Below are positions 403 through 60,222 of a stretch of 64,000 bases of DNA, in pieces. The first letter of the stretch is position 1. Each line of letters begins with the position of its first letter. The DNA lies in assembly GCA_009392915.1 (NCBI GenBank), contig CP045477.1, forward strand, positions 775,633 through 839,632, read 5' to 3'. A program made the position numbers and the translations under genes. The notes beneath the pieces are model-generated. The model did not search any database. It saw only the letters and a list, made by a program, of their open reading frames with translations, and had not been told where the DNA came from. The stretch is from Candidatus Forterrea multitransposorum CG_2015-17_Forterrea_25_41. Its GTDB lineage: Archaea > Iainarchaeota > Iainarchaeia > Iainarchaeales > CSSED10-239.

Positions 403-2157
403 ATGTTAATTAAAAAATTATCTCAAGAAACCATTAATTTAATTAGTGCTGGAGAAGTAATTGAAGGTCCAAGTGATATTTTAAAAGAACTTTTAGAAAA
501 TTCTGTGGATGCTAAAGCAACAGAGATAACTGTTGAAATAAAATCTTCTGGTTTAGATTTAATAAAAATAAAAGATGATGGTACTGGTATTTTAAAAGAA
601 GATTTAGAAGTTTGTCTTGAAAAATACACTACAAGTAAACTTGAAAAAATAGATGATTTATACACTATTGATAGTTTTGGTTTTAGAGGTGAGGCATTAT
701 CAACTATTGCTGCAGTTTCAAAATTTAAAATTGTATCTTCTACTACAAATGATGGTAAGGGATATGTTTTAGAGAATAACAATATTTCTCAAGTATCTTC
801 AAACAAAGGAACAACTATAACAGTTCAAGATTTATTTTATAATGTGCCTGTTAGAAAAAAGTTTTTAAAATCAAAAAGCTTTGAATATTCTAAAGTATAT
901 GAAGTTTTTCTTGCAAATGCTTTATTAAATCCAAATATTACTTTTAAGTTTATTTCTGAAAAGAAAAATGTAATTTTTCCAAAAACAGATTTTGAAAATA
1001 GATTAGTTCAAATATATGGTGTTGAAATTAAAACTAAAACAATTAATTTAGATATTAATACAGAATTATTTAAAGTTAAAGGAATTTTAACTAATCCTCA
1101 AAATCCAGTTTATTTTCCTTCAAATTTTTTATTTATTAATAAAAGATTTGTATTTTCACCTCAAATCTATAAAGCTATTATTGATTCTTATAAAGATTAT
1201 TTAATGATACAACAAAAACCATTTTTTATTTTATTTATTGAGTTAGATCCTAGAACAATAGATGTGAATGTACATCCTAAAAAAAGAGTTGTTAAATTAC
1301 AAAATGAAATGTTGTTTTTATTAGAGTTTAAAAGAGAATTATCTAAAAAATTAGATGCATCTTTAGGTAAATTTGCTCCTGCTTTAGAGCATAATTCTTT
1401 AAAAGATTTTATTTCTTCTAAAAATTCAGATTATTCTTCTTTTCAAAAACCAACTCAAAGTAGTTATTCAAGTAATAACTATTCAAGTAATAAAGAAGTT
1501 CCTTTTTTCAGAAGTGATCTTCAAAAACCACTTTATGAAAATAACAATATTTCTAGTATTTCAGATAACTTAACTTTATTTGAACACAATATTACAAAAA
1601 TACTTGGTCAAATAAAAAACACCTTCATTATTTGTGAAACTGATAAAGGGATGATATTAATTGATCAACATGCTGCTGATGAAAGAATAAACTTAGAAAA
1701 AAATAGATTGAAATATGCTGATTATGTTGAAAAACAAAATTTAATATCAGAAATTTCTTTAGATTTTATTTCTGAATCACATAAAGAAATTTTAGCAAAT
1801 AATATTGAAATTTTTAAAAAAACTGGTTTTGAATATTATTTAAAAAATGATATTTATTTTTTAAAAACAATTCCTTTATTTTTAAATAAATATTTTGATA
1901 AAAACTTATTTTTAAATCTTTTAAAAGATATTGAAGAAGGCAATAATGAAGTTTTTAAACTTAAAGATAGTCTTTTAAAATTAAGATCTTGTAAAGAATC
2001 TATTAAAGCTAATGATTATTTAAGTAGTCATGAACAAATAGAAATTATTAAAAAATTAAATCTTTGTAAAGATAAAGGTATTTGTGCTCATGGAAGACCA
2101 ACAATTATATTTTTATCTTTAAAAGATCTTGAAATATTATTTAAAAGAATAGTTTAA
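403..2157 (+). CDS. mutL: DNA mismatch repair protein MutL (endonuclease-type)
   Basis: N-terminal GHKL ATPase signature (LSQETINLISAGEVIEGPSDILKELLENSVDA, DDGTGI). C-terminal DQHAADERINLE matches the DQHA(x)2E(x)4E endonuclease motif, and CAHGRPT is present near the C-terminus. Confidence 0.9.
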   Translation: MLIKKLSQETINLISAGEVIEGPSDILKELLENSVDAKATEITVEIKSSGLDLIKIKDDGTGILKEDLEVCLEKYTTSKLEKIDDLYTIDSFGFRGEALSTIAAVSKFKIVSSTTNDGKGYVLENNNISQVSSNKGTTITVQDLFYNVPVRKKFLKSKSFEYSKVYEVFLANALLNPNITFKFISEKKNVIFPKTDFENRLVQIYGVEIKTKTINLDINTELFKVKGILTNPQNPVYFPSNFLFINKRFVFSPQIYKAIIDSYKDYLMIQQKPFFILFIELDPRTIDVNVHPKKRVVKLQNEMLFLLEFKRELSKKLDASLGKFAPALEHNSLKDFISSKNSDYSSFQKPTQSSYSSNNYSSNKEVPFFRSDLQKPLYENNNISSISDNLTLFEHNITKILGQIKNTFIICETDKGMILIDQHAADERINLEKNRLKYADYVEKQNLISEISLDFISESHKEILANNIEIFKKTGFEYYLKNDIYFLKTIPLFLNKYFDKNLFLNLLKDIEEGNNEVFKLKDSLLKLRSCKESIKANDYLSSHEQIEIIKKLNLCKDKGICAHGRPTIIFLSLKDLEILFKRIV

Positions 2158-3347
2158 ATCTTTACAATCCATATAAATAAAAATACTGTAATTATTAATA
2201 AAATAGTGATTGCTGTATTTTCAGAAGAATCTGGGTTTTCTGAATTAATGCTAATTGTTTGAGTACCAATATTTTTAACATTTTCTCCTTCTAAATAATT
2301 AATAGTAAAATTTAAGGTGTGTTCTCCTTCTTTATATGTTTTAATTATAAATGGTATTTCAACAACATCTTTTGGTCTAATTAGATTTATTTTTTCTTGA
2401 GATACAATTATTTCTCCATTAAAATAAGGTTTGATATATACATCTGTAACTTCTTTTTCTGAATTGTTAATAATAATTAAATGACCAGTTTGTTCTTCTT
2501 TTGGTACAATTATTTTTTGAATATCTATATGATTTTCTAAAGCATTTTCTTTTTCTGAAATAGTTATTATTTTTTGTTTAATTTTTTTTGTAATTTCTTG
2601 GTTAAAAACATCTGTGTATTTAAGATTTGCAATAGGTGTTGCAAATGTGTTATTTGAATCTGTTTTTACAAAATAATCTATTTTTATTTCACTTTGAGCT
2701 TTAAGCAATCCTTCAAAACTTGTTTCTCCAGAAACATTTTCTAAATTAGAATTATATATGAATAAATTAGATGCATTTTTAAGTTCAATAAAAGTATCTG
2801 CATAACCACTATTTCTTACGTGAATAGTAATAGGTATTAAAGTATTAACATATGCTGTAGAAGGTGCATCTTGATAAAAATCTTCATCAGTTATTTTTGA
2901 ATTATAATAAGTTCCAATTAAACTATCTGAATCTATAATTAACCTTGGTAAAAAATTATTTTCAATACAAATTTCTAATTTGTTATCAATTGAATCAAAT
3001 TTTCCTAATTTTATAATATTTTTTTCTTTAATCTCTTTATCAATTATTTCTGTAATATTTTTATCATTTACTTTAATGTTGATTATAACTCCTTTAGAAA
3101 TAGGTATATAATTTTTAAGCATTAATTGAAAATAAGTTTCTGAAAACTCATCAGATTTTAAATTAAAAGTAAAATCTTTACAAAAACTACTTCCTTTTTC
3201 AACAACAATATCACCTTTATCTAATATATTTAAAGTGGTTTCATCAATAGTTGTTGCTAATAATGAGTTTGAAATTAAGATAATTCCAATAATTAATAAA
3301 AAATACTTATAATTCATATATACTTCACAATATATTATATCTAACAA
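2154..3347 (-). CDS. Secreted/cell-surface protein, Sec signal peptide plus C-terminal TM anchor with very short tail (possible sorting-signal substrate)
   Basis: N-terminal hydrophobic h-region MNYKYFLLIIGIILISNSLLA. The C-terminus ...SENTAITILLIITVFLFIWIVKI is a TM helix plus a 2-residue tail. Confidence 0.4.
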   Translation of the reverse strand: MLDIIYCEVYMNYKYFLLIIGIILISNSLLATTIDETTLNILDKGDIVVEKGSSFCKDFTFNLKSDEFSETYFQLMLKNYIPISKGVIINIKVNDKNITEIIDKEIKEKNIIKLGKFDSIDNKLEICIENNFLPRLIIDSDSLIGTYYNSKITDEDFYQDAPSTAYVNTLIPITIHVRNSGYADTFIELKNASNLFIYNSNLENVSGETSFEGLLKAQSEIKIDYFVKTDSNNTFATPIANLKYTDVFNQEITKKIKQKIITISEKENALENHIDIQKIIVPKEEQTGHLIIINNSEKEVTDVYIKPYFNGEIIVSQEKINLIRPKDVVEIPFIIKTYKEGEHTLNFTINYLEGENVKNIGTQTISINSENPDSSENTAITILLIITVFLFIWIVKI

Positions 3348-3366: not shown

Positions 3367-6300
3367 TTAATGTCTTAATATTTTTTTCTTTTTCTCAGCT
3401 ATGGTTTTTTCTTTCTTTTTATTACCCAACCTTAAATAAGCATATAAACTAACGAATAAAACTACAATAATTGTAATTAAAATATATTGTGTTTTTGTTG
3501 AATTTTTCGAAACAGGATTTGTTTGTTTTAAAACATAAATTACATCAAGATATTTTTCATCATCATAATTTGTTTTTGCAAAATTAAGTGTTTCAACATC
3601 ATATTCTTTTTTTTGATAATCTATTATTTCTTTTTTAGCATCATCTTTTATTTCAATTAAACCAGAGGTTAAATTATCATAATCTGATTTTATTTTTTCA
3701 ATTCTATTTATTGTTTCTAAAGAAATGGCATTAAGTGCACCTTTGTAGTCTTTTTCATTATATTTTTCATCAAAGTTAGATAATTCTTTATTGAAAAGTA
3801 CACTTTCTAAAAAAGCATAATTTTTTTCTAATCTTTTTGCATCGTTTTCTGTAATTCCAGAAAAATACCCAATTGAATAAAGATCAGTTAAAGTATATGT
3901 TTCATATAACAAATATGTTTTTGTAATTATTTCATTAATTTTGTCTTCTTCTAAATTATTTGTTATTGGGTTAATGTAATAATAAAGTTCTTCAGCTTTT
4001 TCTTTTAGTTTCTGATTAATTATATCTTTAATTTCTGTAATGTTTTTATCTTTACTTAATAAATCTAAATCTATGTTTTCTAAATTATTTTCATTAATAA
4101 TTTCATTAAGTTCTTTAAATTCAGCAATTTCTAAACTTTTAGTGTCGTTTTGTAAGTCCTTTTCTCTTTTTTTAATATCTATTAATAACTGTATTAAATC
4201 TTTTTCTGCTAAAACCATATTTTGATATTTATTACTTTCTATTTTTTCTAATTTGTTTTCTTCAAAAGAAGTTAGTTCTTTTTGATAAATCTCATTTAAA
4301 GTAATTAAATAATTTTCTTCAATAATTTGATAATGTTTGTTTTTTTCTAATAGTTTTTGTAAGGTGTTATAATAACTGTAAATAGTTTCTATTTCATTAA
4401 TACTATATTCTTCAGAATATGGTTTGTCCAACAAATATTTCAATTCTTTAATTGATTCTTTTTGAATATCTAAAAATCTAGTGTTTCTAAGCTCTTCTGC
4501 TGCTAAAATTATTTCTCTAATTTCTTCATAAACTTTATTCTTTTCAATTAATGTTTTTAAAACAAATTCTAAAACTTCATCTTTTTTAATCTCTATATTA
4601 TAAATTAAGTTTCCATTTTCTTCAAATAAAGTAATTTCTTTATTATTTTTATAAAAAGTATTAATTTCGTTTTCTTTAGTTTCTTTAATAATTAATTTTT
4701 GATTAATTTTTTCAAAAAATTTATTCTTTAAAGAAATATTTGTTGTTGTAATAAATTTATCACTACTTATTTCTTCAATATTTTTAGATAGGTTATTTTC
4801 AAATACAGGTCCATAGACATAAAATTCATTTTCTTTTTTTGTATAATAATAAATATTATTTTCTTCTATAATAACATCTTCATTTTTAGATATAAATCCA
4901 TCAATAAATAAAAGTGAATCATATATTCCTTCTACTTCGTTTTCAATTGTAATTTTAATAATACTTTCTTTTAATGATAAATAAATTATTTCATAATTTA
5001 TATTTTTATTATTCTCATAATCTACTAAGAAATAATTTTTACCAGGATATATAGTGTGTATCTTTATTTGTGTTTTATTAATAAGTAACCCAGGATCTTT
5101 AGATACTAGGTTTAAATAATTATTTTCTATTTCAATATTTAAAATAATTTCAGAGAAGTTATTTATTAATTCAAAATAATATTTATCATCTATTTTTTTA
5201 ATAGTGTAGTTTTTATTTTCTTGAATGATCTTTTTAATGATTAAATCTATTTCTCTTTCAATATTATTTATTTTTTCTTGATTTTCATTAATATTTATAA
5301 TTAACTCAACATTATTTTTTTGTTTTATTTCCTTTACATCTTTTTCAATTTCACTAATTATTTCATAATTTTCTTCAAGTTTATTTTCAACATATATTTC
5401 ATTAATTTTATTTTCTATTTCTTTAATTCTTTTTTTAATTATAATTATTTTTTCATTACTTTCAAGTTTATAATTTATGTTGTTAATGTGTTCTAAACAA
5501 TCTTCTTCTGTTGAATAAATATATAATTCATAATCTTTAACTTCTTCAATTTCGCTTTCAATAACACTATAAATTAACTCTTGGCAATTTTGTATTTCAT
5601 TTGCATTTTTTATTTTTTCACAATAATTTAATTTTTCAAGAAGATTGTCACTTTCTTTATATTGACTAATTAATCTTGATATATATAGATTACTTTGTTC
5701 TTCTAGATTTTCAACTAAAATATCACAAGCAAACAGTTGAGAGTTTTCTAACTTTTCTTTTTCAACAATTTCTTGGTTTTGTAAAATTTCTAAATTAATT
5801 TCTTTTAATTCTGATAAATATTTTCCAAAAGTAATTGTTTTATTTTCAAAGTAATTTTTTTGTTTTAAATAATAATTATATTTTTCAGTAGTTAAATATT
5901 CTTTATTTTTTTCAATTTCTTTTTGATAATCTTCTATTTTATTATAAATTACATCTAAATTTTCAGTTATTCTATTATTAATAATTATAAATTCTGTAAC
6001 TAATGATTTTTCTTTTCCAACCAACTTATCCATTAAAATATAAAAATTATATCCATCTAGTTTATCTAAATTATAGTTTATGTTTCTTAAATCTTCTATG
6101 TTAGATAATTTTTTATATACAAAATTATTTATTCTTAAAATTTCAGGAAGATTAATTTCTTGTGAATTAATTTCTTTTTCATAGATTTGTAAATAATACA
6201 AAGTTAGATCAGATACATTTTCTTTTGCAAGATAGGTTTCTCTAAAACCTAATTCTTTAGAATATACATGTAATTCTTTAATTTCTTGATTTACTTTTGA

Positions 6301-6855
6301 TAAATAACTTTCATTTTCTATTTGTTTTTTCATAAAATTAATATTATCATTTAATAATATATAATCTTGAAATATTTCTTCTTCAGGAATTAGGTTAACT
6401 TCTTGCTGTTCTAAAAATAAGGTATAATCAATAATAAGATACATGCTTTTTTTAGTTGCATTATCAACATATGAAAAGGTTTTAGAAAAAAGGTCCATTA
6501 CATCATTATAATTATCTAAAATTGTTTTGATGTTCTCTTTTCTACACCCTTCATTCAATAAATCTAGTTCTTTTTTAGTAAGTGTATAATAATAATGACT
6601 GGATGCTAAGTAATTTTTATAAGTATCTATATTTTGACTTAAAGAAAGAGGTATTTTGTTATTTTTTTCAATAGATAATTTTTCAATTTCAGTAAAACAT
6701 TTATTTTGAGAAGTACAATCATCAATAGAAGTAGAGGAATAATGAGTTAAAGCAAGACAAGCTTGCTTTTCTCTAGTGGTTATAAATTCAAGGCAACCTG
6801 AAAGGCTTACTAGTAAAATCAATAAAAAATATATGTATATTTTTTTATCAATCAA
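3367..6855 (-). CDS. Large (1162 aa) coiled-coil-rich surface protein with N-terminal signal/lipobox-like LSGC and C-terminal TM anchor
   Basis: N-terminus MIDKKIYIYFLLILLVSLSGC, long E/K/N-rich heptad-like body, C-terminal TM ILITIIVVLFVSLYAYL followed by a K-rich tail. Confidence 0.4.
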   Translation of the reverse strand: MIDKKIYIYFLLILLVSLSGCLEFITTREKQACLALTHYSSTSIDDCTSQNKCFTEIEKLSIEKNNKIPLSLSQNIDTYKNYLASSHYYYTLTKKELDLLNEGCRKENIKTILDNYNDVMDLFSKTFSYVDNATKKSMYLIIDYTLFLEQQEVNLIPEEEIFQDYILLNDNINFMKKQIENESYLSKVNQEIKELHVYSKELGFRETYLAKENVSDLTLYYLQIYEKEINSQEINLPEILRINNFVYKKLSNIEDLRNINYNLDKLDGYNFYILMDKLVGKEKSLVTEFIIINNRITENLDVIYNKIEDYQKEIEKNKEYLTTEKYNYYLKQKNYFENKTITFGKYLSELKEINLEILQNQEIVEKEKLENSQLFACDILVENLEEQSNLYISRLISQYKESDNLLEKLNYCEKIKNANEIQNCQELIYSVIESEIEEVKDYELYIYSTEEDCLEHINNINYKLESNEKIIIIKKRIKEIENKINEIYVENKLEENYEIISEIEKDVKEIKQKNNVELIININENQEKINNIEREIDLIIKKIIQENKNYTIKKIDDKYYFELINNFSEIILNIEIENNYLNLVSKDPGLLINKTQIKIHTIYPGKNYFLVDYENNKNINYEIIYLSLKESIIKITIENEVEGIYDSLLFIDGFISKNEDVIIEENNIYYYTKKENEFYVYGPVFENNLSKNIEEISSDKFITTTNISLKNKFFEKINQKLIIKETKENEINTFYKNNKEITLFEENGNLIYNIEIKKDEVLEFVLKTLIEKNKVYEEIREIILAAEELRNTRFLDIQKESIKELKYLLDKPYSEEYSINEIETIYSYYNTLQKLLEKNKHYQIIEENYLITLNEIYQKELTSFEENKLEKIESNKYQNMVLAEKDLIQLLIDIKKREKDLQNDTKSLEIAEFKELNEIINENNLENIDLDLLSKDKNITEIKDIINQKLKEKAEELYYYINPITNNLEEDKINEIITKTYLLYETYTLTDLYSIGYFSGITENDAKRLEKNYAFLESVLFNKELSNFDEKYNEKDYKGALNAISLETINRIEKIKSDYDNLTSGLIEIKDDAKKEIIDYQKKEYDVETLNFAKTNYDDEKYLDVIYVLKQTNPVSKNSTKTQYILITIIVVLFVSLYAYLRLGNKKKEKTIAEKKKKILRH

Positions 6856-11623: not shown

Positions 11624-12919
11624 ATGGCTAAATCTAAAAAATCAGAAACTAATAAAACTAATGAAGTGAAAATAGTTTCTCAAACAATCTCTGATGAGAT
11701 TTTAGATCAAGAAAAGATATTAGTCGTATGTGTAGATAGAGATAATGATATTGGTCAAAAAATTAATGTTACTGGTCCAATCATTGGTTTTAAAAATAAT
11801 GTAAAGGTTGTTACTAATTTTGGAATTGCAGATCCTGAAGATTCAGATGCAAATTGTATTTTTGGTGGTTTGAAAGTTTATAAAAAATTAGAAAGTAATA
11901 CTGATGTTGAAATTGTAACATTAACAGGACATTCAAAAGAAAATATTTTATTTTCTGATAAAAATATAGCTAATCAATTAAAACAAGTATTGTCTGTTTA
12001 TCCTGCAACAGGTGTTGTTTTTGTAAGTGATGGTGCAGAAGATGATCAAGTAATTCCATTAATTCAAAATTTTGTACCTATAATTTCTAAAGAAACAGTA
12101 ATTGTTAGACAATCTAAAAGTTTAGAAAGTACCTTTTATACAATAAAAAGAGCTTTAAAAGATCCTTTTTTTGCAAGAGTTGTTTATGGTGTTCCTGCAA
12201 TTGCTTTATTGTTATTTGTTTTCTTTAGGGCTTATGCTTTACAGATTGTTGCTTTTTTACTAGGAATGTATTTTTTAGTAAAAGGTTTTAGTTTAGATAA
12301 AAAAATAATTTCTTTTTTTAAAAATGTTACAAATAAATTTTCAATATACAGGATAAGTCTTCCTTTTTATCTTGCATTTATTTTCTTTTTAATCTTTGCA
12401 ATTATTAAAGGATTAAATCTTTATTATCAAAATCAATATTTTGATTATTTGTTTATTATTGTTTCTTCTATTAGATCTGTACTTTTACAAATAGTTATTG
12501 CTTTTGTACTTTTAGTTATAGGTTCAATAATTGATTTATTCTATTTGAAAAAAATGTTTAATTTAGGTAAAAATATTTTTGCTTTGTTTTTTATAATTAT
12601 ATTTTCAATAATTGTTGATTTTGCTTTACAATTTATAATTCAAGATATAAATATTTCATTCTTTTTATTAGTGGTAATCTTTGGATCAATCCTTTTAGTT
12701 TTAGTAAGTAGATTTACTGTTCTATTTGATGTGAACTTTAAAGTTAGTCCTCTTTTAGTCGGGCTTTCAGTCTATTCTAAGTATGGTTTGTTTTTAGGAG
12801 AAGTAACTGGTGTAGATGATAAGAGAAAAGTTTTAAGATATAAGGAAAAGAACACTGAAAAAGTAAAAACTATTTCTGAAAAGAACTTTGTTTTAGAAAA
12901 TGGTACTATTCTAATCTAA
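11624..12919 (+). CDS. Archaeal polytopic membrane protein with cytoplasmic DUF373-like N-domain
   Basis: Soluble N-domain (ILVVCVDRDNDIGQK...VSDGAEDDQVIPLI) followed by about 6 TM helices. The ATG at 11624 is preceded by GGAG; the track start at 11582 is a TTG. Confidence 0.35.
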   Translation: MAKSKKSETNKTNEVKIVSQTISDEILDQEKILVVCVDRDNDIGQKINVTGPIIGFKNNVKVVTNFGIADPEDSDANCIFGGLKVYKKLESNTDVEIVTLTGHSKENILFSDKNIANQLKQVLSVYPATGVVFVSDGAEDDQVIPLIQNFVPIISKETVIVRQSKSLESTFYTIKRALKDPFFARVVYGVPAIALLLFVFFRAYALQIVAFLLGMYFLVKGFSLDKKIISFFKNVTNKFSIYRISLPFYLAFIFFLIFAIIKGLNLYYQNQYFDYLFIIVSSIRSVLLQIVIAFVLLVIGSIIDLFYLKKMFNLGKNIFALFFIIIFSIIVDFALQFIIQDINISFFLLVVIFGSILLVLVSRFTVLFDVNFKVSPLLVGLSVYSKYGLFLGEVTGVDDKRKVLRYKEKNTEKVKTISEKNFVLENGTILI

Positions 12920-13135
12920 GTTAACATCAATAGTAAGTTGATTTTCACAAATATTTAATTGATCTATACAATTATTGATTTCTTTATTTAATATTTGAAT
13001 CTCATTAAAACTAGGGTTATTTTTATTTTTTGTAAACAAATTTCCAGAAAAAACAATTGCACCAAGTATAAACCCAACAATAAGGCTTACAACAATTATA
13101 ATAATAGTAGTTTTTGAGTATTTTTCACTATCCAT
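12911..13135 (-). CDS. Small single-pass membrane protein (hypothetical)
   Basis: 74 aa with TM IIIIVVSLIVGFILGAIVF. Could be spurious. Confidence 0.2.
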   Translation of the reverse strand: MDSEKYSKTTIIIIVVSLIVGFILGAIVFSGNLFTKNKNNPSFNEIQILNKEINNCIDQLNICENQLTIDVNLD

Positions 13136-22986: not shown

Positions 22987-24123
22987 ATGATTTCTTTAAA
23001 TTATAAATCTATCTCACCTTTAATTTCTGTAATTTTATTAATTGTTGTATCTATTGCTTTTATAGGTGTAATTACCAATTGGAGTAAAAGTTTTGTTATA
23101 ACGAATTCAGAAAAAGTAGATTTAATAAAAACAAATAATTCTTTAGATCAATTTATTGTTATAGATTCTTTTTATGATTCTGAAGAAAATTCAAGTATTA
23201 TTTTAAAAAATAACGCTAATAAAAATATTGTGCTTGAAAATTATAAATTTATAAACGGGGAAGGTGAGTTTTATAATCAAGAATTTGTAATTTCTGGAGA
23301 TGATGTTTTAAATAAAGGTAATTTATTAAAAATAGATTTAATTTGCTTTCCATCAAATAATTTAGATATTCTTTTTAAAACAACAGATGGAGATTATTTT
23401 AAAGTTAATTTAAAAAAATCTATTTTAAATATAAATTATTGTCATAATGATTTTAAAAATCAAAAAGTATATTCTTTTGAAGAATTGTTAGAAAAGAATC
23501 TTTTAGATGTAAATAGTTATTATTTAGATGTAAATGGAGATTTAAATTTACCTGAAATAGATGATTTTATTATAAAAACAAAATTTAAATTAGATTCAGT
23601 CTCTGGCTATCAAACATTAATTTCATATAAATATTCTGGTGTTTCAGGTTATGGTTCAGGACAAAGAGGTGGATTTAAATTTATGGTTCTTCCAAGCGGT
23701 AATTTTGCAATTGTAGGTAGTCAAAATGGTGGTTCTTTATGGTGGGGTTATTCTGGAGGAGATCCTGGACAAACACCCCCTTTAGTTTCAAATAAGTATT
23801 ATGATTTAATTTATCATAAAAATGGTCGTTTAATTAATTTGTGTCTTAAAGATAATATAGATTATAATTCTTTTTTTTGTAACGAACCTTGGTATTATCC
23901 TTATTATGATATTACAAACATCTATTATAGTGACAATCCAACATATAATTATAAATCAATAATTGGTGCTACAAATTATGGTTTAGAAAATACTTTTTTA
24001 GATTATTTTAATGGATCTGTTGAATATATTGAATTGTATGAATATTCTGAAGATAATAATATATCTTCAGTAAACAACCTTCCTTTAAATAATTATATTT
24101 TTAAAATAGATTTAACAAAATAA
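22987..24123 (+). CDS. Class III signal peptide (archaeal pilin-like) protein with LamG/ConA-like lectin domain
   Basis: N-terminus MISLNYKSISPLISVILLIVVSIAFIGVITNW (charged/Ser then hydrophobic helix). C-terminal region (...GGFKFMVLPSGNFAIVGSQNGGSLWWGYSGG...YDLIYHKNGRLINLCL) resembles the LamG beta-sandwich. Confidence 0.45.
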   Translation: MISLNYKSISPLISVILLIVVSIAFIGVITNWSKSFVITNSEKVDLIKTNNSLDQFIVIDSFYDSEENSSIILKNNANKNIVLENYKFINGEGEFYNQEFVISGDDVLNKGNLLKIDLICFPSNNLDILFKTTDGDYFKVNLKKSILNINYCHNDFKNQKVYSFEELLEKNLLDVNSYYLDVNGDLNLPEIDDFIIKTKFKLDSVSGYQTLISYKYSGVSGYGSGQRGGFKFMVLPSGNFAIVGSQNGGSLWWGYSGGDPGQTPPLVSNKYYDLIYHKNGRLINLCLKDNIDYNSFFCNEPWYYPYYDITNIYYSDNPTYNYKSIIGATNYGLENTFLDYFNGSVEYIELYEYSEDNNISSVNNLPLNNYIFKIDLTK

Positions 24124-24994: not shown

Positions 24995-25156
24995 ATTGTT
25001 TTCTTATTTTTTAAGTTGTTCTTAATAATATATTTATAGTTCATTTAATTTATAAACAGTAGTAATTTGATTTTAAAAAAATTATCATTTAAGCTTACCT
25101 TTTTATATTTTTCTTATATTATGTTATATATTTATATAATTATTTATGTGTAGGAT

Positions 25157-27490
25157 ATGTTTGCTATTTCAAAAAAAGGAATAAGTCCTTTAATTGTAAC
25201 TATTTTAATTGTTGTTGTAATAGTCATTATTGTGTCTGTTTTATTATTGTGGGGTAAATCTTTCACTTTAGATAATTTATCTCTTTCTGAAAGAGTTTTT
25301 GAAAAATCTAGTCTTTCTGATTTTGTTTGGCAAGATAATTTATTTGAAAAAAATTTATTTATTAAAAATACAAATTCTAAATTAGGTGCGTCAATTATTG
25401 GTTATAAAATAAATAGTTCCTTAGATTATCCTTTTTTAAATGAATATAGATACTTAGAAACTGAAGTTTATTTGGGAAAAAACAGTATTGCAACAATTCC
25501 TTTAGTTTGTATTCCTGAGAAAAATTTTACAATAGAATTAATTACTTCCAAAGATGAGTATATTACTGTGCCTGTTACTTCAAAGTCTTTTGATGCAAGT
25601 GATTGTACTTTTAAAGGAGAAATTACAAATCCTTCTGAAGATTTTAGTATAAGGTCTGGAGATTCTATTTTGTTTGACTCTTTGGCATTAAATACTTCTG
25701 GGAATGAAACTTATTTATGGGTATCTGATAAAGATGGAACTTTAAGTACTGATAAAAATTTTACAATAAGTTCTTTATCTGTAAACAATCATTTAATTAC
25801 TTTAACAATCACAGATTTTAATTCAACTATTGAAAAATCTTTGTCTGTTGTGATTCATCCTCCTTTAAGTTTAAGTATTTTATCTCCAATTGATGATTCT
25901 GGTTTTTTAGTAAACACCTCTATTGATTTTAATTCAATTATTGATAATAATTTAGGTGATTATTCTTGTAATTGGCAATCAAATCTTGATGGTTTGTTAA
26001 GCACCAATTGTATTTTTAATTCTTCAAGTTTATCTGTGGGTAATCACACTTTAACTTTAAATGTAATTGATGATGTAGGAACTAGTAGTGTTACTTCTGA
26101 TATTTTAGTTAAGAATAGTTTTACACCAATCATTAGTTCTCCTTTAGAAGATTCTATTTTTGTAGTAGGAAATAACATAAATTTAATTGGTACAACAATT
26201 AATTCTTTTGGAACTTATACTTGTTCTTGGGATTCAAATATTAATGGAAGTTTAGGTACTGGTTGTAATTTAAATGTTGATGATCTAAACATAGGTGCTC
26301 ATGAAATAACTTTAAATATAACAGATGATTTAGAAACAAAAACTGCAGTAACAACTATTGTAATTAAAGATCATTTACTTCCAGAAATAGTATCTCCTAT
26401 TGCAAGTTCTACTTCAACAGAAGGAAATACAGTTAATTTTTTAGGGAGTGCAACTAATACATATGGAAGTTACACTTGTTCTTGGGATTCAAATCTTGAT
26501 GGAAATTTAGGTGTTGGTTGTGATATAGATGTTTCTGATTTAACTTTAGGAACTCATGAAATAACTTTAAGTGTAACTGATGATTTAGAAACTGTTTCAA
26601 TTTCTCAAATTAATTCTGTGATTGTTATTGTGTATGTTGATGATTTAATTAATTTAGTTTTCAGTGATAGTGTTACAGGTTATTCTTTTTCTGGTAGTAC
26701 TTATAATTATAATGATTTATTAATTTTAAATAGTTCTAATACTGTAACTGTTACTCCGACTGGGGCTGGAACAATAACTGTAAATGGTTCTACTGTTTCC
26801 TCAGGTTCTCCATCAAGTCCTATTGATTTAAGTGATGGTACTGAAAAAACAATTACCATAGAAGTTAGTGATGTTGATAAGTATTCTAAAACTTATACTT
26901 TGAGATTAACTAAAATAGTAACTACTGGTGGAACCATAACTAATGGTACAGGTTATAGAATTCATAAATTTACTTCAAATGGATCATTTACCTCTAACAT
27001 CCCATTAACTGCTGAACTTTTAGTTATTGGTGGAGGTGGAGGTGGTGGTGGATATGATGGTGGTGGTGGTCGTGCCGGAGCGTTATATTATAGTGCATCT
27101 TATTCAATACCTTCAGGTTCAACAAATGTTGTAATTGGTGCTGGAGGTCTAGGTGTAAATTATACAAAAGGATCAGCAGGTACTGCTTCTTCTTTTGGAG
27201 CAATATCTAAAGCTGGAGGTGCTGGTGGGGCTTTAACAAGTCCTAAATCTGGTGGTGCAGGTTGTGGTGGTGGAGGAAGTGCCTTTAATGCAGGACTGGG
27301 TTATGGTCTTGAAGGTCCTGGTTGTACATATAGTATTACAGGAACTCCTGTTGTATATGGTCTAGGAGGAAGAGGAGGTAATGGAGGGAGAACAGATGGT
27401 GCTACAAACACAGGATCAGCAGGTTGGGCTGGCGGAACTAGAGGTGGTCATGGTGCTGATGGAGTTGTAATTGTTAGAATAAATTCTTAG
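25157..27490 (+). CDS. Large (777 aa) class III signal peptide surface protein: tandem Ig/PKD-like repeats plus C-terminal glycine-rich domain
   Basis: N-terminus MFAISKKGISPLIVTILIVVVIVIIVSV. Three to four modules with Y(S/T)C(N/S)W(Q/D)SN(L/I)DG...GC...L(S/N)(V/I)G.H(E/T)(I/L)TL. C-terminal 180 aa is more than 40% Gly (GGGGGGGGYDGGGGRAGA...). Confidence 0.5.
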   Translation: MFAISKKGISPLIVTILIVVVIVIIVSVLLLWGKSFTLDNLSLSERVFEKSSLSDFVWQDNLFEKNLFIKNTNSKLGASIIGYKINSSLDYPFLNEYRYLETEVYLGKNSIATIPLVCIPEKNFTIELITSKDEYITVPVTSKSFDASDCTFKGEITNPSEDFSIRSGDSILFDSLALNTSGNETYLWVSDKDGTLSTDKNFTISSLSVNNHLITLTITDFNSTIEKSLSVVIHPPLSLSILSPIDDSGFLVNTSIDFNSIIDNNLGDYSCNWQSNLDGLLSTNCIFNSSSLSVGNHTLTLNVIDDVGTSSVTSDILVKNSFTPIISSPLEDSIFVVGNNINLIGTTINSFGTYTCSWDSNINGSLGTGCNLNVDDLNIGAHEITLNITDDLETKTAVTTIVIKDHLLPEIVSPIASSTSTEGNTVNFLGSATNTYGSYTCSWDSNLDGNLGVGCDIDVSDLTLGTHEITLSVTDDLETVSISQINSVIVIVYVDDLINLVFSDSVTGYSFSGSTYNYNDLLILNSSNTVTVTPTGAGTITVNGSTVSSGSPSSPIDLSDGTEKTITIEVSDVDKYSKTYTLRLTKIVTTGGTITNGTGYRIHKFTSNGSFTSNIPLTAELLVIGGGGGGGGYDGGGGRAGALYYSASYSIPSGSTNVVIGAGGLGVNYTKGSAGTASSFGAISKAGGAGGALTSPKSGGAGCGGGGSAFNAGLGYGLEGPGCTYSITGTPVVYGLGGRGGNGGRTDGATNTGSAGWAGGTRGGHGADGVVIVRINS
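25955..26640 (+). repeat. Intragenic tandem repeat, period about 250 bp, about 2.7 copies (encodes the repeated Ig/PKD-like modules)
   Basis: Near-identical nucleotide blocks beginning tattcttgtaattggcaatcaaatcttgatgg (about 25960), tatacttgttcttgggattcaaatattaatgg (about 26215) and tacacttgttcttgggattcaaatcttgatgg (about 26468). Confidence 0.6.
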
Positions 27491-27653
27491 TGAATTTTTT
27501 CTCTTTTAAATATTTTTAACTTAACTTGCGCTTTATCTACTTAACTTAATCTTTATATACTTTTCTAAATATATAATATATATTAATACTAATTATAGTA
27601 TTTTATTTCTTAAAACAAAATTATAAATTTATAAAATAAGAGAATGATTTAAT

Positions 27654-56477: not shown

Positions 56478-57212
56478 TTATTTTTTCTTTTTAATTATTG
56501 TTTTTTTCTTTTCTTTTTTAAAGGAAATTGGTTTTTTATTTTTAAAATAAGTTTCTTTAATTTTTTCATAAAGTTCTTTTTTAAAAGCATATGCGTATTG
56601 TTTTACTTCTTGACTAATTTTTATATTTCCTTTTTCAAAATCTATTCTTTTAAAAATATTTGTAATTTTTCCATTCTGGTCTGATTTAAATGAATATACA
56701 TTAAGGTTTTGAGGATTTATAAATAACCAATTTCTTCCTTCAAGTCCTCCATATTCTCCAATTCTATCTTTTATAAAAACTCTTGTAAGTTTGCCATCAA
56801 TTTTTACTTTTGTAGTCTGTAAGGTATCTGATTTTAAGGCTCTTAAAAAACCTTTATATGTCTGGTTACAAGTTTGTTCAAATTGTAATGATTGAATATT
56901 ATTTTTAAGGAAAAATCCTTTGTCTAGATTTCTTAATTGAGAAATTGTACTTCTGTTTACATCTTTATTTCGGTATACTTTTACATAATTTGAAAGTAAA
57001 AGATCTCTTATAACTTCTCTTTTATTTTCAACATTATTGCCTTTTAAAACTCTAGAGGTTATTTCAATAATTTCTTTTTTTTGTTCTTTTGTAAAATTAT
57101 TTATAAAATCTTTAAAAATTTTACTTCTAGGCATTCCAATGTTAATTGTCATGGAATCATTTTTTTTTAAAAATATTAATTCTAAGATTTTATTAAATTC
57201 TGCATCTATCAT
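56478..57212 (-). CDS. Hypothetical protein with K-rich C-terminus
   Basis: ORF only. Confidence 0.25.
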   Translation of the reverse strand: MIDAEFNKILELIFLKKNDSMTINIGMPRSKIFKDFINNFTKEQKKEIIEITSRVLKGNNVENKREVIRDLLLSNYVKVYRNKDVNRSTISQLRNLDKGFFLKNNIQSLQFEQTCNQTYKGFLRALKSDTLQTTKVKIDGKLTRVFIKDRIGEYGGLEGRNWLFINPQNLNVYSFKSDQNGKITNIFKRIDFEKGNIKISQEVKQYAYAFKKELYEKIKETYFKNKKPISFKKEKKKTIIKKKK

Positions 57213-57315
57213 TGTTTTTCAAATTTTTGTAAGTCTATTATTAATATCTATTAAAAAGAAAGATATAAAAATAAAATGGTCTTATAAATTATTAAAAATT
57301 ATAAATATATTTTAT

Positions 57316-58191
57316 ATGGCTCCAAAAAAGAAAGAAAAAATAAGTTTTGAAGAAGAACTATATAGATTATTCTTGCCTTTTACAAAAAATATTCAGTCAG
57401 ATGATTTTGAAGAGGCATTAAGTCAAGCAGACATAACTGTAGATATAGATGTTTATTTTTCTAAAAATTTATTTTTTGCATTATTTATACTTTTTATGAT
57501 ATTAATTTTTGGAACTGTTGCAAGTAATTTAGTTCCAGATATTATAAGCTTAAAGTTAGTCGTAATTTTAGCATTATCTATTTTCATTGTATTTGTGGGA
57601 TATGCAGTTTTTAATCCTTATTTAATTATTGGAAATAAAGTTACAAGTATTAGGAATGCATTACCTTTAGCAATTATTGGAATGTCAAGTGTAGCTGAAT
57701 CAGGTGCACCTCCAATTGCAATTTTTTCAACAAAGACAATAAAAGATAAAAGTCAATATTTAGATAAAGAGTTTACAAAAATTACTTATTATGTTAATAA
57801 TTTAGGAATTTCACTTCTTGAAGCAATTGATATTTCTGCAAGAAAAACTCCTTCTTATGATCTTAAAAAGTTTTTACTAGATTTAAAATCAAATATTGAA
57901 GCTGGTGGATCTTTACCTGAATTTATGAAAAAAAAAGCAGAGCATGCAAGATTTCAATATAATCTTTTATTAAATAACCAAAATCAAAAAGCAGAAACTT
58001 TTGGTGATATTTATTCTGCAATTGTTGTTGCAGGTCCATTATTTTTATTTTCTGGTATTATGCTTTTAGGTATGGTTGGTGGTGGTGTTGCAGGTTTAAG
58101 TATAAACACTGTATTACAGATTGGAATATTTTTAATGGTTCCAATAATTAATATTTCATTTATAGCTGTTTTAAATTTAGTTAGTGGTTAG
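57316..58191 (+). CDS. Type II secretion system F-domain membrane protein (TadB/TadC/FlaJ-like pilus platform), copy 1
   Basis: One T2SSF-like cytoplasmic domain flanked by TM helices. Preferred start is the ATG at 57316 (MAPKKKEK), which avoids overlapping the opposite-strand gene. Confidence 0.5.
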   Translation: MAPKKKEKISFEEELYRLFLPFTKNIQSDDFEEALSQADITVDIDVYFSKNLFFALFILFMILIFGTVASNLVPDIISLKLVVILALSIFIVFVGYAVFNPYLIIGNKVTSIRNALPLAIIGMSSVAESGAPPIAIFSTKTIKDKSQYLDKEFTKITYYVNNLGISLLEAIDISARKTPSYDLKKFLLDLKSNIEAGGSLPEFMKKKAEHARFQYNLLLNNQNQKAETFGDIYSAIVVAGPLFLFSGIMLLGMVGGGVAGLSINTVLQIGIFLMVPIINISFIAVLNLVSG

Positions 58192-58198
58192 ATAAAAT

Positions 58199-59050
58199 AT
58201 GGATTTGAAAAAAGAATTTGGAATAACTCTTTCAGAAAAACAAAAGTTTTTCGTAGATTATGTTATTTATGGTTCTGTAGGTTCAATTGTTTTCTTTGTT
58301 TTATTAATGAATACTAAATTTTTAGTTTTTTCAATTTTTCCTTTACTTGCAGCTGTAGGTATTGCTGCAAGAATATACACTGCAAGAATTAAATCTTATG
58401 AAAGAAATCTATATGTGTTTTTAGATGATCTAAAAGATCTTCTTCAAGGTGGTATGAATATTGTAACTGCTATTGAAGTTGCATCTAGACACGATTATGG
58501 TCATTTAAATGCACCTATTAAAAGAATTGCAGCACAAATAAAGATTGGTGTTCCTTTTGATGTTGCTTTAAATGATGTTTTTGGAAATATTGATAGTGCA
58601 GTATTTGCACAAATTACACAAATCATTTCTGAAACTACAAAAGTTGGTGGAAATATAATTAAAATTTTCGCATCAATTTCAGATTATGTTAAAACAATTA
58701 ATGATATGGTAGAAGAAAGAAAATCTAAAACTTTTTCTACAGTTTTTTCAAGTTACTTTATGTTTTTTGTTTTTATTGCTATTATTTTAATTATACAAAT
58801 AGTTTTTTTGCCAATGCTTAGTGGTAGTACAGTTTCATTAACTGGAGAAGGAGCAACAAATGCATCTTCAATGTCTGATGTTAATTTTAATAAATACTTT
58901 TTATATTTAATTGTTATTCAAGGTTTATTTGCAGGTCCAACAATTGGTTTAATTTCCGAAAATAATTTTGTTGCAGGGATACGGCATTCAATTATTCTTG
59001 TAGGGGTTTCTGTTCCTATATATGTAATTGTTTCAGCAATTTTCTTATAA
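58199..59050 (+). CDS. Type II secretion system F-domain membrane protein (TadB/TadC/FlaJ-like pilus platform), copy 2
   Basis: T2SSF-like domain (NIVTAIEVASRHDYGHLNAPIKRIAAQIKIGVPFDVALNDVFG) and 3 TM helices. Lies 7 nt downstream of copy 1, in a different frame. Confidence 0.55.
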   Translation: MDLKKEFGITLSEKQKFFVDYVIYGSVGSIVFFVLLMNTKFLVFSIFPLLAAVGIAARIYTARIKSYERNLYVFLDDLKDLLQGGMNIVTAIEVASRHDYGHLNAPIKRIAAQIKIGVPFDVALNDVFGNIDSAVFAQITQIISETTKVGGNIIKIFASISDYVKTINDMVEERKSKTFSTVFSSYFMFFVFIAIILIIQIVFLPMLSGSTVSLTGEGATNASSMSDVNFNKYFLYLIVIQGLFAGPTIGLISENNFVAGIRHSIILVGVSVPIYVIVSAIFL

Positions 59051-59147
59051 TCTTAATTTGTATTTTAAAGAAGATAGGTTTATATATGTTATAGTTTATA
59101 TATTATTATAATTTAAGAAAAATATATATATATTAAAATGAAAAAAA

Positions 59148-59609
59148 ATGAAAAATAAAAAAGCATTATCTCCATTGATTGCAACCATTCTTTTAGTTGC
59201 TGTTGCTTTATCTTTAGCAGGGATATTATATTCTTGGTCTTCTCAAAATTTTAGAGATACCACAACAAGTGTTTCAGATACTTCTGCAGAATGGATTGAT
59301 TGTAGTAATGTTAATATATATATAGATTCTGGCTGTTCTTATACATCTTTAGATGGATTTGGAACTTTAATATTATTTGATAGATCTACAGTTGAAATTG
59401 ATCAAAATATTGTTTTAACAATTATTGATGCAGATGATGAGATTGCAAGTGTTGAAATTGAACCAAATTTTACTGGTAATGCAATGTCATTAGCTTCAAC
59501 TTTAAATGCTATTGATGGTATTAAAGGTCTTGCAACTCCTCTTAAGAGAGTACAAGCACATGTTAAAAATTGTCCTGATAGAGTATCATATATCTCTAGA
59601 TGTAGTTAA
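59148..59609 (+). CDS. Archaeal type IV pilin-like protein (class III signal peptide), paralogue 1
   Basis: MKNKKALSPLIATILLVAVALSLAGILYSW, four Cys (two predicted disulfides), ends RCS. Confidence 0.65.
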   Translation: MKNKKALSPLIATILLVAVALSLAGILYSWSSQNFRDTTTSVSDTSAEWIDCSNVNIYIDSGCSYTSLDGFGTLILFDRSTVEIDQNIVLTIIDADDEIASVEIEPNFTGNAMSLASTLNAIDGIKGLATPLKRVQAHVKNCPDRVSYISRCS

Positions 59610-59652
59610 TTTTTAAAAAAATTATAAATATGAAAATATAAGGTGATATAAA

Positions 59653-60132: not shown

Positions 60133-60222
60133 ATGTATATAATAAAAAGAGACTTTCTTTATAATTATAAAGAAAGTTTTTCTTTTTTTATTTTTTTTTA
60201 AATTATAAATTTTGAAATTTTT

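What the first reader, a model, noticed from the sequence alone, without database searches (positions are those of the whole stretch)
25157..27490. 777-aa pilin-signal surface protein with about 250-bp tandem repeats (CxW-DS-N-DG...GC modules) and a Gly-rich C-terminal domain forming a GC island
The N-terminus is a class III (prepilin-like) signal peptide, yet the protein is far larger than a pilin. This suggests a pilus-tip or cell-surface adhesin anchored by a pilin-like helix. The middle carries three to four Ig/PKD-like modules, each with two Cys, that are also repeated at nucleotide level, allowing slippage or recombination-prone repeat-number variation. The last 180 residues are mostly Gly (GGGGGGGGYDGGGG..., GAGG, GGAG motifs), creating a sharp local GC spike in an otherwise AT-rich genome. 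That resembles Gly-rich beta-helical fibre or tail-fibre-like domains. For a host-attached DPANN-like cell this is a candidate host-attachment protein.
Basis: partly seen in the sequence, partly recalled or inferred. Interest (0 to 1): 0.6.

Follow-up and report, generated by a model that had tools for sequence, protein, structure and literature searches.

The report
Archaeal pilin carrying phage-fibre-like head
This gene from a small, AT-rich DPANN-type archaeon most likely encodes a pilin-anchored surface adhesin: a pilin-type anchor, a stalk of five Ig-like domains, and a folded glycine-rich tip of the kind phages carry on their tail fibres, which makes it a plausible cell- or surface-recognition protein.

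Summary
ORF 25157..27490 (+) encodes 777 aa. The identical protein is in NCBI as an uncharacterised [quoted passage not shown] and is listed in 82 blocks of the assembly collection, so assembly artefact is unlikely.

Architecture:
- **Anchor:** a class III-type leader (MFAISKKG|ISPLIV...) followed by a 32-residue helix and a beta-sandwich. This N-module is homologous to the three small pilins next to two T2SSF platform genes in the same window.
- **Stalk:** four 85-aa PKD/Ig-like modules, three of them with a Cys pair, then a cadherin-like beta-sandwich.
- **Head:** a Gly_rich_2 (PF21722) domain.

The repeats are old: 49-68% nt identity, and TRF does not call them. The "GC island" comes from Gly codons alone (GC3 6.8%).

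The N-module defines at least 180 protein clusters whose C-terminal heads differ (lectin-like, GLUG, RCC1, Kelch, Lcl_C and others). The head is also the most divergent part among orthologues.

Best reading: an archaeal modular type IV pilin that acts as an adhesin. Filament display, binding and ligand are inferred, not shown.

The parts
25157..25180 (+). Leader peptide, residues 1-8 (MFAISKKG). The proposed prepilin-peptidase cut lies between G8 and I9.
   Evidence: Sequence. The same K-[G/S/A] | [I/V/L]-S-P-L-I motif occurs in about 150 family members and in the window's small pilins. Cleavage itself is inferred.
25181..25282 (+). Hydrophobic alpha-1 helix, residues 9-42: the pilin-type anchor or polymerisation helix.
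   Evidence: AF2 predicts a helix at residues 11-42 with pLDDT 84-95. hhalign against the small-pilin profile gives probability 99.4%, E 9e-22, over leader, helix and first beta hairpin.
25289..25597 (+). N-terminal beta-sandwich, residues 45-147. Together with the helix it forms the 'carrier' pilin module. C118 is invariant and C150 nearly so.
   Evidence: AF2 strands span residues 57-141 with pLDDT 93-96. phmmer of residues 1-147 finds 180 cluster representatives, always matched at their N-terminus.
25598..25852 (+). PKD/Ig-like module 1, residues 148-232, without a Cys pair in this allele.
25853..26107 (+). PKD-like module 2, residues 233-317, with C271 and C285.
   Evidence: Pfam PKD PF00801 matches residues 252-318 at 28.6 bits against a cut-off of 23.5.
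26108..26362 (+). PKD-like module 3, residues 318-402, with C356 and C370.
   Evidence: Direct repeat 26101-26337 versus 26356-26592 at 73% nt identity. It shares 47% aa identity with module 4.
26363..26617 (+). PKD-like module 4, residues 403-487, with C441 and C455.
   Evidence: Same repeat family. Weak PKD_4 hit at residues 414-485.
26651..26911 (+). Cadherin-like beta-sandwich, residues 499-585.
   Evidence: Pfam PF12733 at E 2.9e-8, 34.5 bits against a cut-off of 24.2.
26924..27487 (+). Head, residues 590-777: a beta-sandwich plus glycine-rich lattice domain (Gly_rich_2). It is the most variable part among orthologues.
22987..24123 (+). Neighbouring paralogue, 378 aa: the same leader, helix and N beta-sandwich, with a different and unassigned C-terminal domain.
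   Evidence: BLASTP gives 27% identity over 161 aa, E 3e-11. The family N-module HMM gives E 3.4e-30 over positions 1-144. No Pfam family is found for the C-terminal part.
57037..59050 (+). Two adjacent T2SSF-type (PilC/TadC-like) pilus platform genes, 57037..58191 and 58199..59050.
   Evidence: Pfam T2SSF at E 2.1e-9 and 6.6e-16. The same gene order occurs in an Iainarchaeum MAG, locus L010.
59148..60666 (+). Three small pilin genes (59148..59609, 59653..60132, 60223..60666; 153, 159 and 147 aa) with the same class III-type N-terminus.
   Evidence: Regex scan. The N-module HMM gives E 4e-13 to 5e-22. One has a weak Arch_flagellin hit. The trio is conserved in relatives L009-L012 and L015.

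Best explanation
The gene encodes an archaeal modular type IV pilin that serves as an adhesin.

**Shown by sequence and structure prediction**
- The protein has a pilin-type N-terminus: a short basic leader ending in Gly, a long hydrophobic alpha-1 helix, and a small beta-sandwich. This acts as a 'carrier' module.
- A rigid-looking stalk follows, made of four PKD/Ig-like modules and one cadherin-like beta-sandwich.
- A compact C-terminal head follows. It combines a beta-sandwich with a glycine-rich lattice and has the same fold as the distal, presumed receptor-recognising domains of phage tail fibres.

**Inferred mechanism**
1. The precursor is inserted into the membrane by its helix.
2. A prepilin peptidase cuts after Gly8.
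3. The pilus machinery (the two platform proteins encoded 30 kb downstream, plus an ATPase encoded elsewhere) then handles the mature protein in one of two ways. It may build it into a filament made of the three small pilins, most likely at the tip because the cargo is bulky. Or it may leave it helix-anchored at the cell surface.
4. The stalk holds the head away from the cell, and the head binds a surface ligand (glycan or protein) on another cell or on a substrate.

The head evolves much faster than the stalk. Across the family the carrier module is combined with many different binding heads, so specificity appears to change through head divergence and head exchange.
For: **Pilin carrier**
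- The leader and helix match archaeal class III signals and match the three small pilins beside the T2SSF genes in this window.
- Profile-profile alignment of the N-module against small pilins gives probability 99.4%, E 9e-22, over 77 columns.
- AF2 predicts a helix at 11-42 followed by a beta-sandwich at 57-141, mean pLDDT 88.9.
- Two of 94 scanned family members hit Pfam Pilin_N (E 2.9e-5, whether above the cut-off is not reported). The neighbouring paralogue has weak Pilin_N and UpsA hits.

**Modularity**
- The N-module (residues 1-147) finds 180 cluster representatives at E<=1e-3, always matched at their N-terminus.
- Their C-terminal domains include Laminin_G_3 (23 members), GLUG (11), RCC1 (8), DUF5122 propeller (6), Lcl_C (5), DUF285 (4) and Gly_rich_2 (2). 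Close paralogues carry Kelch and FGE-sulfatase-like heads.
- Tandem arrays of two or three such genes occur in Iainarchaeum-like MAGs.

**Head**
- PF21722 matches above its cut-off, and AF2 gives pLDDT 89 and pTM 0.87.
- There are 207 viral structure matches in BFVD, and the family profile hits only the Pam3 fibre in PDB.
- Pam3 gp24 is described as a TNF-like plus glycine-rich domain likened to the S16 gp38 adhesin (PMC9942802).

**Same head on bacterial pilins.** P0219, P0240, P0245 and P0258 combine a G|FT(I/L)(V/L)E prepilin N-terminus (PF07963 precomputed for three; the fourth named prepilin-type by its source) with Gly_rich_2.

**Head hypervariability.** Against P0002, every other domain is 85-98% identical and the Gly-rich part 51%. 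Against P0003 the Gly-rich part is 42%, the lowest of all domains.

**Native chromosomal gene.** Codon usage is native. Synteny with core genes is conserved in a 61%-identical orthologue.
Against: - No curated pilin model (Pfam Pilin_N, NCBIfam) hits this protein itself.
- No prepilin peptidase or T2SSE-type ATPase was found among the window ORFs scanned. The gene lies 30 kb from the pilus locus rather than inside it.
- Cleavage, filament incorporation, oligomeric state, binding and ligand are all untested.
- The polyglycine-II lattice was not checked on model coordinates. It is inferred from the fold matches and from high-confidence segments with no helix or strand assignment.
- Iainarchaeota are not established as host-attached.
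Confidence: 0.6

Rival explanations
1. A helix-anchored cell-surface protein that is never polymerised. The class III-type N-terminus, cleaved or not, simply tethers the PKD stalk and head to the membrane, like the class III-signal substrate-binding proteins of Sulfolobus. No pilus is involved.
For: - The gene is not in the pilus locus; it sits between a GTPase gene and secF/secD.
- The cargo of about 630 residues is very large for a filament subunit.
- Archaeal proteins with class III signals and binding domains that are not classical pilins are documented (bioRxiv 10.64898/2026.04.22.720090).
- The beta-sandwich part of the N-module has no detectable sequence similarity to the small pilins beyond the first hairpin.
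Against: - The N-module is conserved well beyond a membrane anchor. A roughly 100-aa beta-sandwich with invariant residues is kept in 180 clusters, which suggests a specific docking or assembly role.
- Bacterial modular pilins with bulky cargo are accommodated at pilus tips (PMC8179133, PMC9934059).
Confidence: 0.25
2. An S-layer-like or generic envelope structural protein. The PKD and cadherin-like domains and the head form part of the cell wall lattice, with no specific recognition role.
- The protein has 17 N-x-S/T sequons, a higher density than the other window proteins compared (2.2 against 0-1.3 per 100 aa).
- The 2026 preprint on archaeal type 4 filament systems notes a resemblance of some adhesin-like proteins to S-layer proteins.
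Against: - The head is the fastest-evolving part and is exchanged for lectin-like and propeller domains in paralogues. That pattern fits ligand recognition rather than a lattice.
- The head fold is that of phage fibre tips.
- Several paralogues per genome carry different heads.
Confidence: 0.08
3. A virus-derived tail-fibre gene: a prophage or provirus remnant, or a recent transfer, rather than a cellular surface protein.
For: - The head matches phage tail-fibre structures and PHROG families (phrog_2295 at E 5.7e-21; phrog_863, 'tail fiber assembly', at E 6.2e-7).
- There is a local GC rise.
Against: - GC3 of the head is 6.8%, the same extreme bias as host genes, so the GC rise is due to Gly codons.
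- The flanking genes are core archaeal genes: PolD, EF1A, secDF, ribosomal proteins.
- Synteny is kept in a 61%-identical orthologue.
- The N-terminus is a cellular pilin module shared with 180 clusters.
- No viral genes were found nearby.
Confidence: 0.03

Closest known systems
Bacterial modular type IV pilins (Streptococcus sanguinis PilB with a vWA module; PilC with an Ig-like plus ConA-lectin module; ETEC CofB). Raynaud et al. 2021 PMC8179133; Shahin et al. 2023 PMC9934059.
   Same: - A class III signal and small pilin 'carrier' module, followed by grafted Ig-like and binding modules.
- The family-wide variety of grafted heads mirrors the 264 architectures reported for bacteria. Lectin-like (ConA/LamG) heads are the commonest in this archaeal family too.
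- Bacterial prepilins with the same Gly_rich_2 head exist.
   Different: - The leader and helix are of the archaeal type (K-G|I-S-P-L-I, with no Glu5 and no bacterial N-methyl motif).
- The carrier beta-sandwich is a family of its own.
- The stalk is much longer (five Ig-like domains).
- The published survey used the bacterial IPR012902 signature, so it did not cover archaea.
- Tip location and adhesion are demonstrated for PilB and PilC but not here.
Cyanophage Pam3 tail fibre gp24 (PDB 7ypx, 7yfw), the related mycobacteriophage Bxb1 gp33 'tail wing brush' and gp29 spike (9d93), and Salmonella phage S16 gp38 adhesin.
- The family profile hits the Pam3 fibre by sequence, E 8e-4, including the terminal G-x-G-[IV]-[IV]-I-[IV]-x-Y strand.
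- A distal position at the end of an elongated structure.
- Conserved Gly motifs with variable segments between them (PMC9942802).
   Different: - Here the domain is attached to a cellular pilin through Ig-like domains, not to a virion baseplate through an alpha-helical trimerisation domain.
- Trimerisation is unknown here.
[quoted passage not shown]
   Same: - An archaeal class III signal fused to a large binding domain.
- The window's pilus locus has two platform genes, as described there for 'system 1' and subsystems 4A and 4B, which also occur in DPANN.
   Different: - Those proteins carry solute-binding domains and sit with ABC transporters.
- This one has adhesin-type domains (PKD, cadherin-like, phage-fibre head) and no transporter context.
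ALK/LTK receptor glycine-rich domain (PDB 7lir, 7lrz, 7nx3).
   Different: The similarity is much weaker (17% identity). ALK is a metazoan cytokine-binding receptor domain. There is no evidence of common descent beyond the fold.

Membership tests
Type IV pilin / archaeal class III signal-peptide protein | A short, positively charged leader ending in G/A/S, followed directly by a hydrophobic stretch of about 20 or more residues. | tested here: met
   MFAISKKG|ISPLIVTILIVVVIVIIVSVLLLW. The same motif is found in the window's three small pilins, in the neighbouring paralogue and across the family. The comparison with the published archaeal consensus is from memory (Szabo et al. 2007).
Type IV pilin / archaeal class III signal-peptide protein | A 'lollipop' fold: a long N-terminal alpha-1 helix followed by a globular beta domain. 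| tested here: met
   AF2 predicts a helix at 11-42, then a beta-sandwich at 57-141, with pLDDT about 90-96.
Type IV pilin / archaeal class III signal-peptide protein | Sequence homology to recognised pilins or to curated pilin models. | tested here: inconclusive
   - No Pfam Pilin_N or NCBIfam hit for this protein.
- The family N-module profile aligns to the small pilins beside the T2SSF genes with hhalign probability 99.4%, E 9e-22, over 77 columns.
- Two of 94 family members hit Pilin_N.
Type IV pilin / archaeal class III signal-peptide protein | Presence of the assembly machinery: platform protein, ATPase and prepilin peptidase. | tested here: inconclusive
   Two T2SSF platform genes and three pilins lie at 57037-60666. 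No T2SSE ATPase or A24 peptidase was found among the window ORFs scanned. The rest of the genome was not available.
Type IV pilin / archaeal class III signal-peptide protein | Cleavage by a prepilin peptidase and incorporation into a filament. | not testable with these tools
   This needs N-terminal proteomics and imaging.
PKD domain (PF00801) / Ig-like repeats | A match to the family model above the curated cut-off, and a beta-sandwich fold. | tested here: met
   - Module 2 scores 28.6 bits against a cut-off of 23.5. Module 4 is weak (PKD_4, 12.9 bits).
- The four modules are mutually homologous at 29-47% aa identity.
Cadherin-like beta sandwich (PF12733) | A match above the curated cut-off. 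| tested here: met
   34.5 bits against a cut-off of 24.2, residues 499-585. This domain was not modelled.
Gly_rich_2 (PF21722), the phage-fibre TNF-like plus glycine-rich domain | A match to the family model above the curated cut-off. | tested here: met
   38 bits against a cut-off of 24.3, residues 606-775 covering model positions 1-225 of 226. A profile search returned at least 6892 PF21722 proteins.
Gly_rich_2 (PF21722), the phage-fibre TNF-like plus glycine-rich domain | The same fold as the solved members (Pam3 gp24, Bxb1 gp33). | tested here: met
Gly_rich_2 (PF21722), the phage-fibre TNF-like plus glycine-rich domain | Glycine-rich motifs that form a lattice of polyglycine-II helices. 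| tested here: inconclusive
The support is indirect. The G8 run and other Gly segments have pLDDT 90-98 with no helix or strand assignment. The matched structures are described as PGII/PPII lattices (PMC9942802, PMC13243192).
Phage tail fibre (virion component) | Encoded in a viral or proviral gene context, with an N-terminal virion-attachment domain. | tested here: not met
   The flanks are core archaeal genes and synteny is conserved. Codon usage is native. The N-terminus is a pilin module.

The most novel reading that the evidence does not exclude
Small-genome archaea of the DPANN group, and in parallel small-genome bacteria, display on type IV pili the same hypervariable glycine-rich receptor-binding module that tailed viruses use on their fibres. 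In these archaea a conserved pilin carrier is recombined with a repertoire of exchangeable heads: Gly-rich, lectin-like, propellers. Which cells or surfaces the organism can attach to would then be set by head divergence and head swapping, as host range is in phages.
Probability: 0.3. Interest if true: 0.75.

Novelty: new variant of a known kind. Interest (0 to 1): 0.55.

Why it matters
How DPANN archaea, and small-celled episymbionts generally, recognise and hold on to partners is largely unknown. This locus gives a concrete, testable candidate.

- The family has one conserved pilin carrier and many exchangeable binding heads, often in tandem arrays.
- One head type shares its fold with phage receptor-binding tips and is the fastest-diverging part of the protein.
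- The 'modular pilin' principle was catalogued for bacteria using a bacterial signature. This finding extends it to archaea.
- It also places the very abundant but functionally unannotated Gly_rich_2 domain (at least 6,892 proteins in one search) on both archaeal and bacterial pilins, which points to a general role in surface recognition.

In practical terms, the public annotation 'cadherin-like beta sandwich domain-containing protein' can be improved.

Tried and rejected
- Tandem Repeats Finder on 24500-28000 found no 255-nt array, only short Gly-codon and AT repeats. The repeats are too diverged for it.
- NCBIfam gave no family for the protein. Single-sequence PDB search gave nothing. The first shallow profile (A1) hit only artificial GGGGS linkers in PDB. 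The deeper profile A3 was needed to reach the Pam3 fibre.
I repeated it with the closer set A5. The organism's own species is not among the representative genomes; the best match is 56% identical.
- A search for the assembly ATPase and prepilin peptidase in the window found none. I used Pfam on about 45 ORFs, a Walker-A regex and a hydrophobicity screen.
- The neighbour's C-terminal domain has no Pfam hit and no phmmer hit among the collected proteins. Its LamG-like look is an impression only.
- Literature searches for PF21722 and for 'polyglycine' plus 'pilin' found nothing relevant. The Bxb1 structure paper (PMC12124961) is not held.
- Horizontal transfer or provirus origin of the GC-rich part is rejected on GC3 and synteny.
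- ORF 12911..13135, a weak N-module hit, is a small membrane protein without the class III motif.
Full report
**1. What is there**

ORF 25157..27490 (+) encodes 777 aa. The window is 24% GC and the gene 31%. The flanking genes are archaeal core genes: PolD DP1 and DP2, EF1A, S10, a NOG1-like GTPase, secF, secD, S3Ae, S15 and RIO1.

The protein is identical to P0019. NCBI lists it as NCP72538.1 and three further accessions, named 'cadherin-like beta sandwich domain-containing protein [archaeon]'. It occurs on 35 contigs up to 839,632 bp and is listed in 82 blocks of the assembly collection. The repeat structure is therefore unlikely to be an assembly artefact.

**2. Repeats and composition**

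Four 85-aa modules lie in exact register at residues 148-232, 233-317, 318-402 and 403-487. Modules 2 to 4 each carry a C-x-W...C pair, at 271/285, 356/370 and 441/455.

- At nucleotide level the best pair (modules 3 and 4) is 68% identical, or 73% over 237 nt.
- The other pairs are 49-58% identical, against 30 +/- 2.6% for shuffled sequence.
- TRF does not call the array.

These are old duplications. Copy number is constant in the orthologues Q, P0001, P0002 and P0003. In a paralogous lineage, however, two otherwise about 97-100% identical proteins differ by exactly one module: P0005 (641 aa) and P0007 (556 aa).

The GC rise to 0.40-0.44 over the last 530 nt is caused by 55 Gly codons, nearly all GGT or GGA. 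GC3 there is 6.8%, against 8.8% in the rest of the gene and 9.0% in secD.

**3. N-terminal module**

The N-terminus, MFAISKKG|ISPLIVTILIVVV..., has the form of an archaeal class III (prepilin) signal. The same motif heads four other ORFs in the window:
- the neighbouring ORF 22987..24123;
- three small ORFs at 59148..60666 (153, 159 and 147 aa), which follow two T2SSF platform genes.

AF2 on residues 1-232, with an 85-sequence alignment, gives mean pLDDT 88.9. It predicts a helix at 11-42, a beta-sandwich at 57-141 and a second beta-sandwich at 153-231.

I built an HMM of the N-module from 83 family members, excluding the window's own sequences. Its scores against window ORFs are:

| ORF | E-value | Region matched |
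|---|---|---|
| Query protein | 1.4e-52 | whole module |
| Neighbouring paralogue | 3.4e-30 | whole module |
| Three small pilins | 4e-13 to 5e-22 | leader/helix end of the module (model positions up to 50-73) |

Profile-profile alignment against a small-pilin profile gives probability 99.4%, E 9e-22, over 77 columns. That span covers leader, helix and first beta hairpin.

**4. A modular family**

phmmer with residues 1-147 against 1.84 billion cluster representatives finds 180 proteins at E<=1e-3 and 100 at E<=1e-10. Lengths run from about 80 to 1271 aa (one outlier of 4998), and in nearly all the match is at the N-terminus. All those inspected have the K/R-[S/A/G]-[I/V/L]SPLIATILL motif.

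Pfam on 94 of them shows diverse C-terminal domains:

| C-terminal domain | Members |
|---|---|
| Laminin_G_3 / ConA-like | 23 |
| GLUG | 11 |
| RCC1 | 8 |
| DUF5122 propeller | 6 |
| Lcl_C | 5 |
| DUF285 | 4 |
| CHB_HEX_C | 3 |
| Gly_rich_2 | 2 |
| Pilin_N | 2 |

Close paralogues keep the same carrier and PKD modules but end in FGE-sulfatase-like, Lcl_C or Kelch domains. One Kelch paralogue lies on a contig of the same length (839,632 bp) under nearby NCBI accession numbers, so probably in the same genome.

Relatives with the full N-module are in MAGs named Ca. Iainarchaeum or Diapherotrites, where two or three such genes can stand in tandem. Helix-only matches occur in Woesearchaeota, Nanoarchaeia and Aenigmatarchaeota. 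The pilus locus, with two platform genes and three small pilins, is syntenic in an Iainarchaeum MAG.

**5. The head**

Residues 606-775 match Pfam Gly_rich_2 (PF21722) above its cut-off. A profile search returned at least 6,892 such proteins.

AF2 on residues 590-777, with 51 sequences, gives mean pLDDT 89.0 and pTM 0.87. Strands lie at the two ends and in the first half. The Gly runs are confidently placed (pLDDT 90-98) but are neither helix nor strand. Only residues about 690-719 fall to pLDDT 61-76.

| Search | Match | Score |
|---|---|---|
| Foldseek vs BFVD | 207 viral models, E<=1e-3 | TM-score (query) about 0.8 for the best |
| Family profile vs PDB sequences | Pam3 fibre only | E 8e-4 |

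The best BFVD matches are mostly named 'glycine-rich domain-containing protein'.

The literature describes Pam3 gp24 as a helical domain plus a TNF-like domain plus a glycine-rich domain with 12 Gly motifs in a four-layer lattice, and compares it with the S16 gp38 adhesin (PMC9942802). A 2026 paper groups the Pam3 fibre, Bxb1 gp33 and gp29, S16 gp38 and ALK as polyproline-II/polyglycine-II bundles (PMC13243192). I could not inspect coordinates, so the lattice itself is inferred.

**6. Two further observations bear on function**

- **The head is the fastest-diverging part.** Against P0002 every domain is 85-98% identical except the Gly-rich part, at 51%. Against P0003 the Gly-rich part is lowest at 42%, while the cadherin-like domain is 87%. 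The low-confidence segment of the model coincides with an indel-rich segment.
- **The same head sits on bacterial prepilins.** P0219, P0240, P0245 and P0258 have G|FT(I/L)(V/L)E N-termini (PF07963 precomputed for three; P0240 is named prepilin-type by its source) and a Gly_rich_2 domain. P0258 lies on a bacterial contig with dnaA, dnaN, yidC and rnpA.

**7. Interpretation**

The protein fits the 'modular pilin' design established for bacteria. There, a small pilin carrier presents grafted Ig-like and binding modules, probably at the pilus tip (PMC8179133, PMC9934059). It also fits what is known of archaeal class III-signal proteins with binding domains (bioRxiv 10.64898/2026.04.22.720090).

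I consider it most likely (0.6) that this is an archaeal modular pilin and adhesin. Its head would recognise a surface ligand, with specificity changing through head divergence and exchange.

The architecture and homologies are shown. Cleavage, filament display, binding and any role in host attachment are inferred.

The main rival (0.25) is a helix-anchored surface protein that is never polymerised. An S-layer-type structural role (0.08) and a viral origin (0.03) fit the data poorly.

**8. Novelty**

The sequence is public but uncharacterised. Modular pilins, PKD stalks and the phage Gly-rich fold are each known. Their combination appears undescribed in the literature I could search. That combination is an archaeal pilin carrier family with exchangeable heads, one of which is the phage-fibre glycine-rich module that is also present on bacterial pilins. 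I rate it a new variant of a known kind, of moderate interest.

Noticed in passing
window 22987..24123 (+): A second modular-pilin paralogue lies 1 kb upstream, with a divergently oriented GTPase gene between. It has the same leader, helix and N beta-sandwich (27% identity over 161 aa; HMM E 3.4e-30). Its roughly 215-aa C-terminal domain matches no Pfam family. By eye it resembles a LamG/ConA-like jelly roll, which I did not test.
   Followed up: partly
window 57037..60666 (+): A compact pilus locus: two adjacent T2SSF platform genes followed by three small pilin genes of 153, 159 and 147 aa. It has no adjacent ATPase or prepilin peptidase. The gene order and pilin lengths are the same in Iainarchaeum-like MAGs (L009-L012, L015; L010 ORF map).
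   Followed up: partly
proteins P0005 and P0007 (relatives, Lcl_C head): Two otherwise about 97-100% identical proteins differ by exactly one 85-aa PKD-like module (641 versus 556 aa). This shows recent repeat-number change in a sister lineage, whose adjacent modules are much more alike than those in the window gene.
   Followed up: yes
proteins P0219, P0240, P0245, P0258; locus L046 8001..9185: Bacterial prepilins with a G|FT(I/L)(V/L)E N-terminus (three also with a precomputed PF07963 hit) carry a Gly_rich_2 head. P0258 sits on a compact bacterial contig near dnaA, dnaN, yidC and rnpA, with a T4SS_pilin gene. That context resembles CPR/Patescibacteria genomes (from memory); the organism was not identified.
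   Followed up: partly
loci L004 791..4452, L005 1070..4497, L006 223..2777, L007 5971..8027: Tandem arrays of two or three genes that each start with the full N-module, in MAGs labelled Ca. Iainarchaeum or 'uncultured archaeon'. The heads in these arrays were not annotated.
   Followed up: no
window 3367..6855 (-): A 1162-aa ORF with an N-terminal hydrophobic segment ending in a lipobox-like LSGC and no Pfam match. The adjacent ORF 2154..3347 (-) has a signal-like N-terminus and a weak CARDB hit. Both may be further uncharacterised surface proteins.
   Followed up: no
protein P0016 (1111 aa, metagenomic): A protein with the Gly_rich_2 domain at its N-terminus, behind a signal-like segment. 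A long Asn/Ser/Thr-rich region follows, and C-terminal transmembrane segments end the protein. This is the opposite topology to the window protein.
   Followed up: no
window, whole: Third-position GC is extremely low (about 7-9% in the genes examined), so amino-acid composition alone produces sharp local GC features. Other 'GC islands' in this genome may have the same trivial cause.
   Followed up: partly
window 25100..25156 and 27491..27530: A TTTATATA element lies about 20 nt upstream of the ATG, with AGGA 4 nt before it. T-runs follow the stop codon directly. These are compatible with a separate archaeal transcription unit; the available promoter scan does not cover archaeal promoters.
   Followed up: no
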